A stretch of 15,710 nucleotides of DNA, from IMG/VR virus record IMGVR_UViG_2778261360_000006; one strand, 5' to 3'. Positions 1 to 4,359 of this stretch are shown piece by piece; the first letter of the stretch is position 1, and every line of letters starts with the position of its first letter. The notes under the pieces were generated by a model. That model was not told where the DNA came from and ran no database searches. It saw nothing but the letters and a program-made list of their open reading frames with translations. The position numbers were made by a program, and so were the translations under genes. This DNA is from a virus. Lineage: Duplodnaviria; Heunggongvirae; Uroviricota; Caudoviricetes.

Positions 1-55
1 TTGTGATTATGGCCTCCGGTTATTTCATCGGTCAGATACGCTGGTGGTGAAATGA
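1..55 (+). CDS. 3' end of an upstream lysis gene (probably the endolysin), partial; stop TGA at 53-55 overlaps the Rz ATG as ATGA
   Basis: Frame 2 is open from the window edge to TGA 53-55, and the ATGA overlap with Rz is typical translational coupling. Position immediately before Rz matches the lambdoid lysis cassette order. Too short to identify the family. Confidence 0.3.
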
Positions 56-516
56 ACCGCGTACTGTGCGTGGTCATTATTGCCCTGCTGGTGGCCTGTG
101 GTGCGCTTAGTCTGGGGCTGAATCATTACCGTGATAACGCCATTACCTACAAAGCCCAGCGCGACAAAAATGTCAGAGAACTGAAGCTGGCGAACGCGGC
201 AATTACTGACATGCAGATGCGTCAGCGTGATGTTGCTGCGCTCGATGCAAAATACACGAAGGAGTTAGCTGATGCGAAAGCTGAAAATGATGCTCTGCGT
301 GATGATGTTGCCGCTGGTCGTCGTCGGTTGTACATCAAAGCAGTCTGTCAGTCAGTGCGTGAAGCCACCACCGCCTCCGGCGTGGATAATGCAGCTTCCC
401 CCCGACTGGCAGACACCGCTGAACGGGATTATTTCACCCTCAGAGCGCGACTGATAATAATGCAAAAACAACTTGAAGGGGCACAGCTATACATTCGAGA
501 GCAATGCCTCAGATAA
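52..516 (+). CDS. Rz: Rz i-spanin (inner-membrane spanin subunit)
   Basis: 154-aa ORF. Translation from [17 protein letters not shown] onward is nearly identical to lambda Rz as I recall it; N-terminal hydrophobic transmembrane segment present; Rz1 is embedded in the +1 frame. Confidence 0.95.
272..454 (+). CDS. Rz1: Rz1 o-spanin, outer-membrane lipoprotein, embedded within Rz in another frame
   Basis: 60-aa [27 protein letters not shown]... with lipoprotein signal and lipobox (LVVVG-C), proline-rich PPPPP core; near-identical to remembered lambda Rz1 and located wholly inside Rz. Confidence 0.9.
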
Positions 517-786
517 AAACCGGCCAAGGATAATCCGCTGAAGATTCGCCGGTGGCTAAAGTGTGCCAAGAGTTCAATTTACGCAATTACTCCTGTCGAT
601 GCTATGCACCGTCTTTGTGAAGTCAATGGATACCTGATTTATTTCTGTGCGCTGTATCGTCGCTGTACTCTTGCATTAATTATGACTGTAGCCTGACTGG
701 GAACTCCTTCTGCACAAGTGTGGGGGAATAATCAAAAACGGTGCACACCGGGGTTACCGGGTACACATATTTCATCATGCCAGCGA

Positions 787-815
787 GTCCGGTTCTGGCA
801 CGGAAGAAACCGGAC
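787..815. terminator. Hairpin (8-bp stem GTCCGGTT / AACCGGAC, 13-nt loop) immediately 3' of the minus-strand 136-aa gene; possible weak or bidirectional terminator
   Basis: Perfect inverted repeat at 787-794 and 808-815 read directly from the sequence; flanking U-tract is weak on both strands, so terminator function is uncertain. Confidence 0.25.
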
Positions 816-823
816 GTTATGAT

Positions 824-1234
824 TTAGTGCGGAAATATTTGTGTAGTGTTCTGAATGTTCTCAGTAAAGAGTAATGAATTATCAAAGGTATAGTAATACC
901 TTTTGTTTTCGTGGATATTTGTAATCCATCTGAAAACCCCTGCTGTAGCAAGATTTTTCCTGTATTCGTAAAATGATAACTCTCCTGATTTGAATCCTTT
1001 TAAGGTGGCTTCTATAAGGCATTTATTTTTTGAAAATCTTACATTTACAACCTTACCCTGTCCTTTTATTAAAACCGTATTATCGTTTTCAAGAACAAGA
1101 TGAATATTCTCTGTGGCTAAATAGTAAATGTAATGTGAGACATTGTGACGTTTTAGTTCAGAATAAAACCAGTGATAGTTTAAATTATTTCGCACTTTAT
1201 CGAATATTTGTTTAAAAATGGCAACCTGAGCCAT
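824..1234 (-). CDS. Hypothetical protein, 136 aa from the SD-supported start at 1234 (ORF track extends to 1249); AT-rich moron gene, possibly DUF1398 / YbcV-YdfO-like prophage protein
   Basis: Long ORF in an otherwise non-coding, visibly AT-rich stretch. GGAAGG Shine-Dalgarno 7 nt upstream of the ATG at 1234. Family assignment is only by recollection of size and position of ybcV in E. coli DLP12 (between lysis genes and the Nu1 homolog); not verified. Confidence 0.65.
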
Positions 1235-1291
1235 TGTAGTACCTTCCATGTGATATGAGGGGGCGTAGTCTGCACGATTATCTAAATTGCT

Positions 1292-1525
1292 TCAATCTGG
1301 TCTGACCTGTTTTCTGAGCAATTCAGTAATGTCACTCTTTTCTTTGTTTGCTTCAGGCGAAACTCTTTTTTCTGAGCACAGTCTCCGGCGGCAGGCTTCA
1401 ATGACCCAGGCTGAGAAATTCCCGGAACCTTTTTGAACAAGAGCGATGTTAATTTGTTCAATCATTTGGTTAGGAAAGCGGATGTTGCGGGTTGTTGTTC
1501 TGCGGGTTCTGTTCTTCGTTGACAT
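1292..1525 (-). CDS. Small ribbon-helix-helix (CopG/Arc/MetJ-like) DNA-binding protein, 77 aa; upstream gene of the minus-strand cassette
   Basis: Translation has a basic N-terminal tail (TRRTTTR), putative beta-strand NIRFP, helix NQMIEQINIALVQKG, G-S-G-N turn, helix FSAWVIEACRRRL: the canonical RHH layout. Same strand as and 57 nt upstream of the 136-aa gene. Shine-Dalgarno is weak. Confidence 0.55.
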   Translation of the reverse strand: MSTKNRTRRTTTRNIRFPNQMIEQINIALVQKGSGNFSAWVIEACRRRLCSEKRVSPEANKEKSDITELLRKQVRPD

Positions 1526-1694: not shown

Positions 1695-1701
1695 GGGTCC
1701 T
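1695..1701 (+). promoter_or_regulatory. cosQ-like element (GGGTCCT) about 25-30 bp upstream of cosN
   Basis: The 34 bp preceding cosN (ttacgggtcctttccggtgatccgacaggttacg) match the lambda right end as I recall it, and lambda cosQ lies in this position. Exact cosQ boundaries are from memory. Confidence 0.45.
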
Positions 1702-1724
1702 TTCCGGTGATCCGACAGGTTACG

Positions 1725-1736
1725 GGGCGGCGACCT
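1725..1736 (+). other. cosN: 12-nt cohesive-end sequence GGGCGGCGACCT (terminase nicking site)
   Basis: Exact match to the lambda 12-nt cohesive end, flanked by lambda-like right-end sequence on the 5' side and followed by CGCG...TTTTC.CTATTTATGA like the lambda left end; located about 215 bp upstream of the Nu1 start. Confidence 0.85.
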
Positions 1737-1952
1737 CGCGCGTTTTCACTATTTATGAGATTTTTTGAGGGGGTGGTTGTTGTTTAATTGTTTGGTATAT
1801 CTAATTGATAAGTAAGGTGAAAATAAAATAAATACAACAACCTTACGATGTGTTTTGATGTCGTCAATGCGAAAAATGTCAATGATATCAAATGGTTTTG
1901 CAAAAACACATGGTTGTTGTTTCGCTTTTTATCGATGACTTATGGAGAGGAG
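1737..1952 (+). promoter_or_regulatory. cosB-like region between cosN and Nu1 with three copies of a GGTTGTTGT(TT) motif (1775-1785 +, 1834-1842 inverted, 1912-1922 +) and an A-rich, likely bent segment (1817-1833)
   Basis: Repeats read directly from the sequence. By analogy with lambda cosB (R3-I1-R2-R1 binding sites for gpNu1 and IHF) these are candidate small-terminase binding elements; the motif differs from lambda R sites. Confidence 0.5.
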
Positions 1953-2459
1953 ATGGCCTTTTTATTGAATAAAAGTGATATGGCCTCCTCCATCGGTATC
2001 TCTGTTCAGGCATTTGATAAATGGGGCGTTCCTCCTGTTGAACGTCGGGGGAGGGAAGTTTTATATGACGTTAAAACTGTACTAGAGATAGATCGCGAGC
2101 GGCGACAACACAATCAGAGAACACCTGATGACGGGGGAGAACTGGAGGAAAGGCTGCTTCGGGCCAGAGCTGAACTGACAGAAGAACAGGCTGTAGCTCA
2201 AAAACTTAAAAATCAGGTAACCGAAGGTAAGCTCATCGATTCAGACTTTTGCGTTTTCGCCCTCAGCAAACTGGCGATGGCATTGTCCAGTACGCTTGAT
2301 TCCATTCCGTTATCCATGCAGCGACAGTTCCCGGATTTAACGCCACGTCATATTGACCATCTGAAAACCCTTATTGCAAAGGGCGCAAATCAGTGTGCGC
2401 GGGCAGGGGATAAATTACCGGATTTGCTGGATGAATATATCAGAGCAACAACTGAATAA
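1953..2459 (+). CDS. nu1: Terminase small subunit (gpNu1-like); start taken at ATG 1953 rather than the ORF-track start 1848
   Basis: Translation from MAFLLNKSDMASSIGISVQAFDKWGVPPVERRGREVLYDV aligns with the lambda Nu1 N-terminal winged-HTH (…IRTIQNWQEQGMPV…GNEVLYD…) and C-terminal region (…LSMQRQFPDL…). GGAGAGGAG Shine-Dalgarno precedes 1953; the 1848 extension would cover cosB repeats. Confidence 0.85.
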   Translation: MAFLLNKSDMASSIGISVQAFDKWGVPPVERRGREVLYDVKTVLEIDRERRQHNQRTPDDGGELEERLLRARAELTEEQAVAQKLKNQVTEGKLIDSDFCVFALSKLAMALSSTLDSIPLSMQRQFPDLTPRHIDHLKTLIAKGANQCARAGDKLPDLLDEYIRATTE

Positions 2460-4359
2460 TATGGTGGCCGCCGTTTCGGTTGCGCTGCAGCCTCTGGTCA
2501 GGGTTGTACCGATGACGGCAGTTGAATGGGCTGACCAGTATTATTATCTGCCGAAAGAATCCTCATACGGTGACGGCGAATGGAAAACGCTGCCGTTCCA
2601 GATCGCCATCATGAACAGTATGGGGAATGATCAGATCCGCACTGTTAATCTGATTAAATCTGCCCGTGTTGGCTATACAAAGATGTTGCTGGGAGTCGCC
2701 GGGTATTTTATTGAGCATAAATCCCGAAACAGTCTGCTTTTTCAGCCCACGGATTCTGCCGCTGAAGATTTTATGAAGTCTCACGTGGAGGCGACGATTC
2801 GGGACGTGCCATGCCTGAAAGATCTTTCCCCGTGGCTGGGTCGTAAACATCGTGGTAATACCCTCACGCTGAAACGCTTTTCATCGGGGGGGGGCTTCTG
2901 GTGCCTGGGTGGTGCGGCAGCAAAAAACTACCGTGAAAAATCCGTGGACGTGGTCTGCTATGACGAACTTTCCTCGTTCGAGCCGGATGTCGAAAAAGAG
3001 GGCTCGCCAACCCTGCTGGGGGATAAGCGTATTGAGGGCTCGGTATGGCCAAAATCCATTCGCGGCTCGACGCCTAAAATAAAAGGCTCCTGCCAGATCG
3101 AAAAAGCGGCCAACGAGTCGGCGCATTTCATGCGTTTTTATGTGCCCTGCCCGCACTGTGGGGAGGCGCAGTATCTGAAATTTGGCGATGAGTCCACGCC
3201 TTTTGGCCTTAAATGGGAGAAGGACAGCCCCGAAAGCGTTTTCTACCTCTGTGAACATCATGGCTGCGTGATCCATCAGTCTGAGCTTGACCAGAGCAAC
3301 GGGCGGTGGATCTGTGAAAACACGGGCATGTGGACCCGTGACGGTCTGACGTTTTTCAGCGCTGCGGGTAATGAAATTCCGCCGCCGCGCTCCATCACTT
3401 TCCATATCTGGACGGCGTACAGTCCGTTCACCACCTGGGTACAGATTGTCTATGACTGGCTGGATGCACTGAAAGATCCCAACGGCCTGAAAACCTTTGT
3501 GAACACCACGCTGGGCGAGACCTGGGAAGAGGCCGTGGGCGAAAAAATCGATCACCAGGTACTGATGGATAAGGTTGTGCGTTACACGGCGGCGGTGCCT
3601 GCCCGGGTGGTTTATCTGACGGCGGGCATTGACTCGCAGCGAAACCGTTTTGAGATGTATGTCTGGGGATGGGCTCCGGGAGAGGAAGCCTTTCTGGTGG
3701 ATAAAATCATCATTATGGGGCGTCCCGATGAGGAAGAGACGCTGTTACGTGTGGATGCGGCGATCAACAAAAAATACCGCCATGCAGACGGAACCGAAAT
3801 GACCATTTCCCGTGTCTGCTGGGACACCGGGGGGATCGATGGCGAAATTGTCTATCAGAGGTCAAAAAAACACGGTGTTTTCCGGGTGCTGCCGGTAAAA
3901 GGTGCATCTGTTTATGGCAAGCCGGTGATCACCATGCCAAAAACCCGCAATCAGCGGGGCGTGTATCTGTGCGAAGTGGGGACGGACACCGCAAAAGAAA
4001 TTCTCTATGCCCGTATGAAAGCCGATCCCACGCCTGTGGATGAAGCCACGTCGTATGCCATCCGTTTTCCTGATGATCCGGAGATTTTTTCGCAGACAGA
4101 GGCGCAGCAACTGGTCGCGGAAGAGCTTGTGGAGAAGTGGGAAAAAGGAAAGATGCGTCTGCTGTGGGATAACAAAAAGCGGCGTAACGAAGCGCTGGAC
4201 TGCCTGGTGTATGCCTACGCGGCATTACGTGTGTCCGTGCAACGCTGGCAGCTTGATCTGGCTGTACTGGCAAAATCCCGGGAAGAAGAGACGACCCGGC
4301 CAACCCTTAAAGAACTGGCAGCGAAGCTGTCCGGAGGAGTGAATGGTTACAGTCGCTGA
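2431..4359 (+). CDS. A: Terminase large subunit (gpA-like), 642 aa; start at ATG 2431 (MNISEQQ…), overlapping the Nu1 3' end by 29 nt
   Basis: Strong colinear similarity to lambda gpA throughout (TAVEWAD..YYLPKES, FWCLGG..AKNYREKSVDV, GDKRIEGSVWPKSIRGSTPK, WTAYSPFTTWVQIV, FVNTTLGETWE, KKRRNEALDC). Lambda gpA also begins MNIS…; the ORF-track start 2374 is an in-frame upstream extension. Confidence 0.95.
   Translation: MNISEQQLNNMVAAVSVALQPLVRVVPMTAVEWADQYYYLPKESSYGDGEWKTLPFQIAIMNSMGNDQIRTVNLIKSARVGYTKMLLGVAGYFIEHKSRNSLLFQPTDSAAEDFMKSHVEATIRDVPCLKDLSPWLGRKHRGNTLTLKRFSSGGGFWCLGGAAAKNYREKSVDVVCYDELSSFEPDVEKEGSPTLLGDKRIEGSVWPKSIRGSTPKIKGSCQIEKAANESAHFMRFYVPCPHCGEAQYLKFGDESTPFGLKWEKDSPESVFYLCEHHGCVIHQSELDQSNGRWICENTGMWTRDGLTFFSAAGNEIPPPRSITFHIWTAYSPFTTWVQIVYDWLDALKDPNGLKTFVNTTLGETWEEAVGEKIDHQVLMDKVVRYTAAVPARVVYLTAGIDSQRNRFEMYVWGWAPGEEAFLVDKIIIMGRPDEEETLLRVDAAINKKYRHADGTEMTISRVCWDTGGIDGEIVYQRSKKHGVFRVLPVKGASVYGKPVITMPKTRNQRGVYLCEVGTDTAKEILYARMKADPTPVDEATSYAIRFPDDPEIFSQTEAQQLVAEELVEKWEKGKMRLLWDNKKRRNEALDCLVYAYAALRVSVQRWQLDLAVLAKSREEETTRPTLKELAAKLSGGVNGYSR

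What the first reader, a model, noticed from the sequence alone, without database searches (positions are those of the whole stretch)
1737..1952. cosB carries a distinct triplicated GGTTGTTGT motif while cosN and cosQ are lambda-identical
cosN and the preceding ~34 bp match lambda as I recall it, but downstream the sequence diverges and contains GGTTGTTGTTT at 1775-1785 and 1912-1922 (direct) and its reverse complement ACAACAACC at 1834-1842, with an A-tract-rich segment between the first two. This mirrors the lambda cosB architecture (R3, I1, R2, R1) but with a different repeat sequence, and the Nu1 N-terminal DNA-binding region is correspondingly diverged. That is the signature of a packaging-specificity swap of the lambda versus phage 21 kind: shared nicking site, different small-terminase recognition elements.
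Basis: partly seen in the sequence, partly recalled or inferred. Interest (0 to 1): 0.5.

Follow-up and report, generated by a model that had tools for sequence, protein, structure and literature searches.

The report
N15/Monarch-type cosB in lambdoid prophage
This is the DNA-packaging start site of a lambda-like E. coli prophage, in which three copies of the phage-N15-type small-terminase binding sequence sit in lambda's R3–IHF–R2–R1 layout; the arrangement is real and conserved, but it was published in 2015 as the "Monarch" type, so it is ordinary.

Summary
GGTTGTTGT occurs at 1775(+), 1834(−) and 1912(+), against 0.14 copies expected in the whole window. These positions lie 51, 110 and 188 bp from the first base of a λ-identical cohesive end (cosN 1725-1736), and cosQ (1695-1701) is also λ-identical.

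The motif is not new. It is the R3 sequence of phage N15 (N15 bp 48-63 GAGGTTGTTGTTTAAT), which block mutagenesis has shown to matter for packaging. The small terminase (1953-2459) has an N15-type winged-helix DNA-binding domain: 78% identity over residues 1-45, with the recognition helix QAFDKWGV identical.

The layout is three R sites with the middle one inverted, an IHF-like core at bp 74-86, and no remote rR2 site inside terS. That is the "Monarch-group" complex cosB of Feiss et al. 2015.

- **Conservation:** all 49 distinct complex-type cos segments I collected keep R3 and R2 in place; all but the L007/L108 pair also keep R1.
- **Conserved islands:** R3 and R2 score 0.98-0.99 agreement, spacers 0.73-0.85.
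- **Frequency:** 311 of 5,426 complete E. coli genomes carry it.

One side result may be new: in a weak tree, the complex layout nests within widespread simple N15-type loci.

The parts
1695..1701 (+). cosQ (GGGTCCT), the packaging-termination subsite
   Evidence: Identical to lambda 48473-48479 within a 97% lambda-identical stretch. Agreement with the window is 0.96 among 26 divergent relatives. The lambda cosQ coordinates are from my own knowledge of the literature.
1725..1736 (+). cosN cohesive-end sequence GGGCGGCGACCT (bp 1-12 of the mature left end)
   Evidence: 12/12 identical to lambda and phage 21. It varies in some relatives that keep the same cosB.
1775..1785 (+). R3, the proximal TerS-binding site (GGTTGTTGTTT; bp 51-61)
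   Evidence: Same sequence as R3-N15 (N15 bp 50-60), one base further from cosN. Conservation is 0.99, with 9 of 11 columns invariant. Block mutations of the N15 site cut phage yield 7- to 100-fold (PMC4669245).
1798..1810 (-). Candidate I1, an IHF-binding core (TATCAATTAGATA; 8 of 9 specified positions of WATCAANNNNTTR; bp 74-86)
   Evidence: One-mismatch consensus hit at exactly the bp 74-86 annotated as I1 in phage 21. TTGATA is conserved while the N positions vary, and L108 has a 9/9 match at the aligned position. Binding is inferred, not shown. Consensus hits are not enriched over chance in the window as a whole.
1817..1833 (.). A/T-rich tract flanking the IHF core
   Evidence: Read directly from the sequence. 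Composition is kept but sequence varies among relatives (0.76 over 1817-1831).
1832..1842 (-). R2, an inverted TerS-binding site (GGTTGTTGTAT on the - strand; bp 108-118)
   Evidence: Conservation is 0.98, with 9 of 11 columns invariant. It is inverted and at bp 107-111 in every complex-type relative.
1912..1922 (+). R1, the distal direct TerS-binding site (GGTTGTTGTTT; bp 188-198)
   Evidence: Conservation is 0.885. It is present at bp 176-189 in relatives and degenerate in L007/L108.
1944..1952 (+). Shine-Dalgarno region GGAGAGGAG for terS
   Evidence: Read directly from the sequence. RefSeq places the TerS start at the equivalent of 1953.
1953..2459 (+). terS (Nu1-family small terminase, 168 aa). 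Codons 1-50 (1953-2102) form an N15-type winged-helix DNA-binding domain; the C-terminal half is a different mosaic piece.
   Evidence: Pfam Phage_Nu1, E = 1.4e-21. Residues 1-45 are 78% identical to N15 gp1, and residues 70-168 are 89% identical to PhiR12 TerS. The recognition helix is invariant across the family. The predicted fold matches lambda-type TerS DNA-binding domains.
2431..4359 (+). terL (gpA-family large terminase), the enzyme that nicks cosN
   Evidence: Pfam GpA_ATPase plus GpA_nuclease. 92% identical to phage 21 TerL and 66% to lambda and N15 TerL.

Best explanation
Window 1695-1952 is the cos site of a lambdoid E. coli-group prophage, and its cosB subsite belongs to the N15 packaging-specificity group in its 'complex' (Monarch-type) form.

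Proposed mechanism:
1. [quoted passage not shown]
2. IHF bends the DNA at the core at bp 74-86, which brings R3 (bp 51) and the inverted R2 (bp 110) face to face so the two halves of the dimer can dock.
3. R1 (bp 188) adds affinity.
4. R3-bound TerS positions the gpA-type large terminase (terL 2431-4359) to make the staggered nicks in cosN about 40 bp away. This produces lambda-identical 12-nt cohesive ends.
5. cosQ acts at termination.

cosB plus the first ~50 codons of terS form one exchangeable specificity module. It is joined to lambda-type DNA on the left at about bp 41, and to a different TerS C-terminal, TerL-binding piece on the right.

Shown here: the sites, their geometry, their conservation, and the pairing of helix and site across distant hosts. 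Shown by others for N15: the motif is needed for packaging. Inferred: binding of TerS and IHF on this particular DNA, and the hairpin geometry.
For: - **Motif and geometry:** motif coordinates and chance expectation. The motif is identical to R3-N15, one base further from cosN.
- **Protein:** TerS residues 1-45 are 78% identical to N15, against 33% to lambda and 20% to 21 over residues 1-50. S17-V26 is invariant in 22 family members. The family is Phage_Nu1. Profile and fold matches go to lambda gpNu1 DNA-binding-domain structures.
- **Conservation:** R3, R2 and R1 keep position and orientation in the complex-type relatives, whose TerS is 62-100% identical; R1 is degenerate only in L007/L108. 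R3 and R2 are the most conserved blocks: 0.99 and 0.98, against 0.73-0.85 for spacers.
- **Helix-site pairing at distance:** 34-54%-identical TerS from Pseudomonas, Aeromonas, Halomonas and others all have GGTTGTTGT, or a one-mismatch copy in L030, upstream of terS, about 40 bp upstream in most. The motif was not used to retrieve these loci.
- **IHF:** an IHF-like core at the same bp 74-86 as the annotated phage 21 I1.
- **No rR2:** there is no rR2-like site in terS.
- **Literature:** PMC4669245 describes exactly this arrangement for the Monarch group, and reports that mutating N15 bp 48-59 lowers yield 7- to 100-fold.
Against: - There is no binding or packaging experiment on this DNA.
- I could not obtain the Monarch prophage sequence itself, because the primary Virology 2015 paper is not held. 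Membership therefore rests on the published description, not on an alignment.
- The IHF consensus match is 8/9, and such matches are not enriched in the window (13 found, 9.06 expected).
- R1 is less conserved and is degenerate in two relatives, so its role may be dispensable.
- Sequence-only matches of the DNA-binding domain to PDB entries are weak (E = 0.015-0.6).
- The distant loci were retrieved with peptide words that include VQAFDKWG, so the identity of the helix among them is partly built in by the search.
Confidence: 0.9

Rival explanations
1. It is a packaging specificity unrelated to any characterised one: a new set of TerS recognition elements. This is the strongest form of the first reader's idea.
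For: No phage record in the INPHARED collection covers 1766-2162 at megablast sensitivity. The R sequence is unlike those of lambda and 21.
Against: The motif equals R3-N15 at the same offset from cosN. The TerS recognition helix is identical to that of N15. The tripartite N15-type cosB is described in the literature as the Monarch group.
Confidence: 0.03
2. The inverted R2/R1 copies and their flanks form a conserved hairpin, either in the late mRNA leader or as a DNA cruciform, that controls terS translation or transcription. On this reading they are not protein-binding sites.
For: Inverted repeats I1 and I4 extend the complementarity. The MFE fold pairs 1834-1842 with 1912-1920.
Against: - The consensus fold of 14 divergent relatives keeps only the invariant R2/R1 pairs, with 0 compensatory changes and -2.6 kcal/mol.
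- The single-sequence z-score is -0.57, and 50 of 200 shuffles fold at least as well.
- A hairpin does not explain R3, or its fixed distance from cosN.
- Simple-type relatives have no such hairpin.
Confidence: 0.03
3. The repeats are chance or slippage-prone low-complexity (GTT)3 runs in an AT-rich intergenic region, with no function.
For: The core is a trinucleotide run. A fourth copy at 1490 appears to be incidental and is shared with lambda.
Against: - 0.14 copies are expected and 4 are found.
- Position and orientation are fixed over relatives whose spacers and even cohesive ends differ.
- The same motif sits next to the same TerS helix in distant genera.
- There is mutational evidence in N15.
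Confidence: 0.01
4. The sites are bound by some other protein, such as a phage or host regulator of late genes, rather than by TerS.
For: No direct binding data exist for this element.
Against: The motif travels strictly with the TerS DNA-binding-domain type, not with the flanking genes. The left flank, the TerS C-terminal half and TerL are all different mosaic pieces. The distance from cosN is fixed, as it is for R3 in lambda and N15.
Confidence: 0.03

Closest known systems
Monarch-group prophage cosB (Feiss et al. 2015, Virology 482:260; summarised in PLoS One 10:e0141934, PMC4669245)
   Same: Lambda-like cohesive ends. R sequences that strongly match R3-N15. Three R sites with R2 inverted. 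An IHF-type site between R3 and R2. No rR2 inside terS. A TerS recognition helix identical to that of N15. All of these were checked here against the published description.
   Different: Nothing detectable from the description. I could not make a direct alignment with the Monarch sequence. The window's cosN is 12/12 lambda; I do not know Monarch's exact cosN.
Phage N15 cos ('simple' cosB: R3 plus a remote rR2)
   Same: The same R sequence (GGTTGTTGTTTAAT) at bp 50/51. The same TerS DNA-binding-domain type (78% identity, identical recognition helix). A gpA-type TerL.
   Different: - N15 has no I1, R2 or R1. Its terS starts at bp 89 instead of 229.
- N15 carries an inverted rR2 at bp 250 inside gene 1, and the window has none.
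- N15's cohesive end differs from lambda's at bp 9 and 12, while the window's is lambda-identical.
- The TerS C-terminal half is only about 43% identical.
Phage lambda cos (cosQ-cosN-cosB with R3-I1-R2-R1) and gpNu1
   Same: Identical cosQ and cosN, with 97% identity over the 362 bp to the left. The same order, orientation and approximate positions of R3, I1, R2 and R1. The same protein family and fold for the TerS DNA-binding domain.
   Different: - The R sequence is GGTTGTTGT rather than CGTTTCCTTTCT.
- The TerS DNA-binding domain is only 33% identical.
- cosB is 38 bp longer (terS starts at bp 229 rather than 191).
- TerL is 66% identical.
Phage 21 cos and terminase
   Same: Identical cosN. 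I1 at the same bp 74-86. The same tripartite layout. TerL is 92% identical.
   Different: The R sequences (TGTCGG type) and the TerS DNA-binding domain (20% identity) are unrelated in specificity. Published data say N15-type terminase does not package 21 DNA.

Membership tests
Lambda-like cos site (cosQ-cosN-cosB) | A 12-nt 5'-cohesive-end site related to lambda's cosN, immediately upstream of terS | tested here: met
   GGGCGGCGACCT at 1725-1736 is 12/12 identical to lambda and 21. It lies 228 bp upstream of terS.
Lambda-like cos site (cosQ-cosN-cosB) | The conserved 7-bp cosQ about 30 bp to the left of cosN | tested here: met
   GGGTCCT at 1695-1701 is identical to lambda, with 0.96 agreement among relatives.
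Lambda-like cos site (cosQ-cosN-cosB) | Terminase of the Nu1 (TerS) plus gpA (TerL) type encoded directly downstream | tested here: met
   Pfam Phage_Nu1 at 1.4e-21; GpA_ATPase at 2.3e-54; GpA_nuclease at 1.8e-71.
N15 packaging-specificity group | An R3 site matching R3-N15 (GAGGTTGTTGTT, N15 bp 48-59) at about the same distance from cosN | tested here: met
   GGTTGTTGTTTAAT lies at bp 51-64 in the window and at bp 50-63 in N15.
N15 packaging-specificity group | A TerS recognition helix identical to that of TerS-N15 | tested here: met
   S17-V26 (SVQAFDKWGV) is identical in the window and N15, and invariant in 22 family members. The helix is placed by alignment to lambda gpNu1 and by the model.
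N15 packaging-specificity group | TerS binds the R sequence, and terminase packages DNA that carries it | not testable with these tools
   This needs EMSA, footprinting or helper-packaging assays. Only the N15 R3 block mutants are published.
Monarch-type complex cosB | [quoted passage not shown] | tested here: met
   1775(+), 1834(-) and 1912(+). The same holds in the complex-type relatives; R1 is degenerate in L007/L108.
Monarch-type complex cosB | [quoted passage not shown] | tested here: inconclusive
   There is an 8/9 consensus match at 1798-1810, at the same bp 74-86 as phage 21's I1. Its TTGATA half is conserved and an A/T tract adjoins it. However, the consensus is weak statistically and binding has not been tested.
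Monarch-type complex cosB | The rR2 site inside terS is absent | tested here: met
   There is no match with 2 or fewer mismatches near +161. The only weak hit is at +492.
Monarch-type complex cosB | Direct sequence similarity to the Monarch prophage cos | not tested
   The primary paper (PMC4461450) is not held, and the Monarch accession is not given in the papers I could read.

The most novel reading that the evidence does not exclude
The tripartite, IHF-assisted N15-type cosB seen here may be a derived elaboration found mainly in enteric bacteria. The ancestral form would then be the 'simple' R3 + rR2 cosB, which is widespread across Gammaproteobacteria. This is the reverse of the published suggestion that N15's simple cosB arose from a Monarch-like ancestor by unequal R3 x R1 crossover.

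Support:
- About 16 species-level loci (Pseudomonas, Aeromonas, Halomonas, Oceanimonas, Erwinia, Trabulsiella and others) have R3 about 40 bp upstream of terS and an inverted copy at exactly +161.
- In a neighbour-joining tree of the DNA-binding domain, the complex-type loci plus one simple locus (L006) form a clade nested inside the simple-type grade. Bootstrap support is 150-177 of 200.

Caveats: the alignment has only 54 columns, this region is heavily mosaic, and the lambda and 21 outgroups are themselves complex.
Probability: 0.4. Interest if true: 0.3.

Novelty: already known. Interest (0 to 1): 0.15.

Why it matters
It matters little as a discovery. The finding re-identifies a published class of packaging site, namely N15-specificity R sequences in lambda's R3-I1-R2-R1 layout. 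That class is common: 311 of 5,426 complete E. coli genomes carry it.

It does have practical uses:
- Annotating cos sites and predicting which helper terminases could package these prophages, or cos-bearing islands and cosmids.
- Illustrating module exchange. The specificity module, cosB plus the first ~50 codons of terS, is swapped between lambda-type cosN/cosQ DNA on one side and different TerS C-terminal and TerL pieces on the other.

The broader survey made here has modest value for specialists in phage packaging evolution. It shows that one recognition helix is paired with GGTTGTTGT across many gammaproteobacterial genera, and that the simple layout predominates among them.

Tried and rejected
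- **Conserved hairpin between R2 and R1.** Rejected: no covariation and an unremarkable folding energy.
- **Fourth motif copy at 1490-1498 as a remote accessory site analogous to rR2.** Rejected: lambda carries the same copy at bp 48268, and only some relatives have it, together with the left-flank sequence it sits in.
- **N-terminal extension of TerS from the in-frame ATG at 1848.** Rejected: relatives have 11-nt and other indels that are not multiples of three in 1843-1911, and RefSeq starts the gene at the equivalent of 1953.
- **IHF consensus enrichment as statistical evidence.** Not significant in the window: 13 hits against 9.06 expected. Only position and conservation support I1.
- **Test of the R3 x R1 unequal-crossover origin of the simple cosB.** I compared post-R3 and post-R1 segments. 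The result is inconclusive: 16-26 of 42 identities either way.
- **Reading the primary Monarch paper (PMC4461450).** Not held.
- **The 'Monarch' hit in PMC12315714.** It refers to a DNA-purification kit.
- **Alignment-based AlphaFold job.** I used a single-sequence model instead.
- **My first conservation table.** It used L032 instead of the window as the reference row, and I redid it.

Full report
**1. The observation**

- GGTTGTTGTTT lies at 1775-1785 and at 1912-1922 on the + strand.
- Its complement ACAACAACC lies at 1834-1842.
- The segment between the first two copies is A-rich.
- The exact 9-mer occurs four times in the window against 0.14 expected, and none of 200 shuffles reaches four.

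The λ-like parts also check out.
- cosN GGGCGGCGACCT (1725-1736) and cosQ GGGTCCT (1695-1701) are identical to λ.
- Window 1363-1724 matches λ 48141-48502 at 97%.
- λ homology continues into the left end to bp 41 (90%) and then stops.

[quoted passage not shown] That start is preceded by GGAGAGGAG and agrees with the RefSeq start in an E. coli prophage that is 99.8% identical over the query 1725-2170.

**2. What the motif is**

Phage N15's left end reads GAGGTTGTTGTTTAAT at bp 48-63. This is the same motif, with the same TTTAAT continuation, one base nearer to cosN than in the window.

In the literature this is R3-N15, the critical small-terminase binding site. Scrambling N15 bp 48-53 lowered phage yield about 7-fold, and scrambling bp 54-59 about 100-fold (PMC4669245).

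The window's TerS matches this.
- It is a Phage_Nu1 family protein.
- Its first 45 residues are 78% identical to N15 gp1. Residues 1-50 are only 33% identical to λ Nu1 and 20% to phage 21 gp1.
- Alignment to λ gpNu1 puts λ's recognition helix (residues 17-24) opposite window residues 19-26, QAFDKWGV. N15 is identical there.
- S17-V26 is invariant in 22 family members.
- A profile of the family finds the λ gpNu1 DNA-binding-domain structures as its three best PDB matches (E = 0.015-0.06).
- A single-sequence AlphaFold model has pLDDT 88-92 over residues 1-50 and the pattern strand-helix-helix-wing-helix. It is closest to λ-type TerS DNA-binding domains 7LWR, 7LW0, 6HN7_B and 1J9I, and then to RacA/MerR-type winged helices.

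**3. The architecture is the published 'Monarch' type**

Feiss and co-workers describe two layouts within the N15 specificity group.
- **Simple cosB of N15:** R3 only, plus a remote inverted rR2 about 200 bp downstream inside the TerS gene.

The window meets each of these points.
- It has three R sites with the middle one inverted.
- It has no rR2-like sequence in terS.
- Its recognition helix is identical to N15's.
- It has a one-mismatch match to the IHF core WATCAANNNNTTR at 1798-1810(−), which is bp 74-86. That is exactly where I1 is annotated in the phage 21 record.

The IHF call is the weakest link. Consensus matches are not enriched in the window (13 against 9.06 expected). What supports it is its position, the conservation of its TTGATA half while the N positions vary, and a perfect 9/9 match at the aligned position in relative L108.

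I could not align with Monarch itself, because the primary paper is not held.

**4.

I collected 108 related loci from one-genome-per-species contigs and from IMG/VR.

Relatives with the complex layout have TerS 62-100% identical to the window's and give 49 distinct cos segments. In all of them R3 lies at bp 50-52 (+) and R2 at bp 107-111 (−). R1 lies at bp 176-189 (+), except in the pair L007/L108, where it is degenerate.

Agreement with the window among 26 representatives less than 97% identical:

| Block | Agreement |
|---|---|
| R3 | 0.99 |
| R2 | 0.98 |
| cosQ | 0.96 |
| I1-core block (1806-1816) | 0.94 |
| R1 | 0.885 |
| Spacers | 0.73-0.85 |

The cohesive-end sequence itself differs in several relatives that keep this cosB, for example L089, L092, L095, L008, and L007/L108.

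Distant TerS homologues (34-54% identity) come from Pseudomonas, Aeromonas, Halomonas, Oceanimonas, Marinobacter, Erwinia, Trabulsiella and others. All have GGTTGTTGT, or a one-mismatch copy in L030, upstream of terS. In most it lies about 40 bp upstream, with an inverted copy at exactly +161, which is the N15 simple layout. Their shared helix is partly built in by the retrieval word VQAFDKWG. The DNA motif was not used in retrieval, so the helix-site pairing is an independent observation.

In E. coli, 311 of 5,426 complete genomes carry this cosB/terS 5' region, and 222 of them match over at least 80% of its length.

**5. Mosaic context**

The specificity module is bounded on both sides.
- **Left boundary:** λ-type DNA ends at about bp 41.
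- **Right boundary:** TerS residues 70-168 are 89% identical to the TerS of phage PhiR12_1. That phage's DNA-binding domain and cosB repeats (ATGTCCGG type) are different again.
- **TerL:** it is 92% identical to phage 21's overall, but only about 51% over the first 60 residues. Published work places TerS binding in that region.

There is one published caveat. N15-specific terminase packages λ DNA but not 21 DNA, whereas λ terminase cannot package N15 DNA (PMC4669245 and PMC9026076). The specificities are therefore asymmetric rather than mutually exclusive.

**6. Rivals**

- **Conserved RNA or DNA hairpin formed by R2 and R1.** Not supported. The consensus fold of 14 relatives keeps only the invariant R pairs, with no compensatory change and −2.6 kcal/mol. 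The window's own fold has a z-score of −0.57.
- **The copy at 1490.** It is shared with λ (bp 48268) and tracks the left-flank sequence in which it sits, not the TerS type.
- **The in-frame ATG at 1848.** Not a coding start, because relatives have frame-breaking indels there.
- **Chance.** Excluded.

**7. Mechanism**

The following steps are inferred from the λ model and the N15 genetics.
1. IHF bends the DNA at bp 74-86.
2. A TerS dimer docks its two winged-helix domains on R3 and the inverted R2 across the bend.
3. R1 adds affinity.
4. R3-bound TerS positions TerL to nick cosN about 40 bp away.

Shown here: the sites, their geometry, their conservation, and the protein fold and family. Shown elsewhere: the motif is needed in N15. 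Not shown: binding and packaging on this DNA.

**8. Verdict**

This is a real, functional-looking and well-conserved element. It is a further copy of an already described kind, so novelty is 'already known' and interest is low.

One side result may be new. On a neighbour-joining tree of the DNA-binding domain, the complex-type loci plus one simple locus (L006) nest within a grade of simple-type loci, with bootstrap support of 150-177 of 200. That suggests the complex N15-type cosB is derived rather than ancestral, which is the opposite of the published suggestion. The evidence is weak: the alignment has 54 columns, the region is mosaic, and the λ and 21 outgroups are themselves complex.

Noticed in passing
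window 1490-1498: A fourth exact GGTTGTTGT copy lies 235 bp to the left of cosN. The same copy exists in lambda at bp 48268, inside the 97%-identical lambda right end. Only some relatives carry it, at about the same offset, together with the left-flank sequence in which it sits. It is probably incidental, although a 9-mer this close to cos in lambda is itself a roughly 1-in-500 coincidence.
   Followed up: yes
L089, L092, L095, L008, L007, L108 (about 228 to 202 bp upstream of terS): Relatives with the same R3-I1-R2-R1 cosB and TerS type carry quite different cohesive-end sequences, for example GGGTCAGAGGAC, GGGTCTGTAGAC, GGGCGGCAGGCG, GGGCGACGTCCG and GGGTGCGTATAC. cosQ GGGTCCT is kept. So cosN and cosB assort independently.
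   Followed up: partly
L006, L011, L012, L014-L031 (+161 from the terS start); N15 bp 250: In simple-type loci the inverted rR2 copy (ACAACAACC) sits at exactly +161, on a conserved KQQP peptide (AAA CAA CAA CC). The exact DNA motif, or a one-mismatch version, occurs at that position in Pseudomonas and Halomonas loci too. I did not test whether this reflects selection on the DNA site or on the peptide; a codon-usage test would be needed. The window's TerS has RQHNQRTP there, with neither the site nor the peptide.
   Followed up: partly
L001-L031, L097, L105 (neighbour-joining tree): Complex-type cosB loci plus one simple-type locus (L006, Trabulsiella guamensis) form a clade nested within simple-type loci from many gammaproteobacterial genera. 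This hints that the complex N15-type cosB is derived, contrary to the published R3 x R1 crossover proposal for the origin of N15.
   Followed up: partly
L113 (PhiR12_1, PV340549.1 24276-26373), locus 460-690: Phage PhiR12_1 shares the TerS C-terminal half (89% identity) and a lambda-identical cosN. Its TerS N-terminus is unrelated, and its cosB has repeats of another type (CCATGTCCGGTTT / AACCGGACATG, repeated). This looks like a further specificity module, resembling but not identical to the TGTCGG sites of phage 21.
   Followed up: no
window 2431-4359: TerL is 92% identical to phage 21 TerL overall but only about 51% over its first 60 residues. That mosaic junction matches the TerS C-terminal type, which is consistent with co-exchange of the TerS-TerL interaction surfaces.
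   Followed up: partly
L007 and L108 (about 40 bp upstream of terS): Two relatives, Pluralibacter gergoviae and an IMG/VR contig, keep R3 and a one-mismatch R2 (GGTTGTTAT) but have a degenerate R1 (ACGACTTGT / AAGACTTGC). Their cohesive end (GGGCGACGTCCG) is nearer to N15's than to lambda's. They may be an intermediate cosB form.
   Followed up: no
window 52-516, 824-1249(-), 1292-1525(-): Upstream of cos lie a lysis-protein (Rz-like) ORF and two reverse-strand ORFs. In the near-identical E. coli prophage these are annotated as DUF1398 and DUF3950 proteins. Window 647-1308 is only 82% identical to lambda, whereas 1363-1724 is 97% identical.
   Followed up: no
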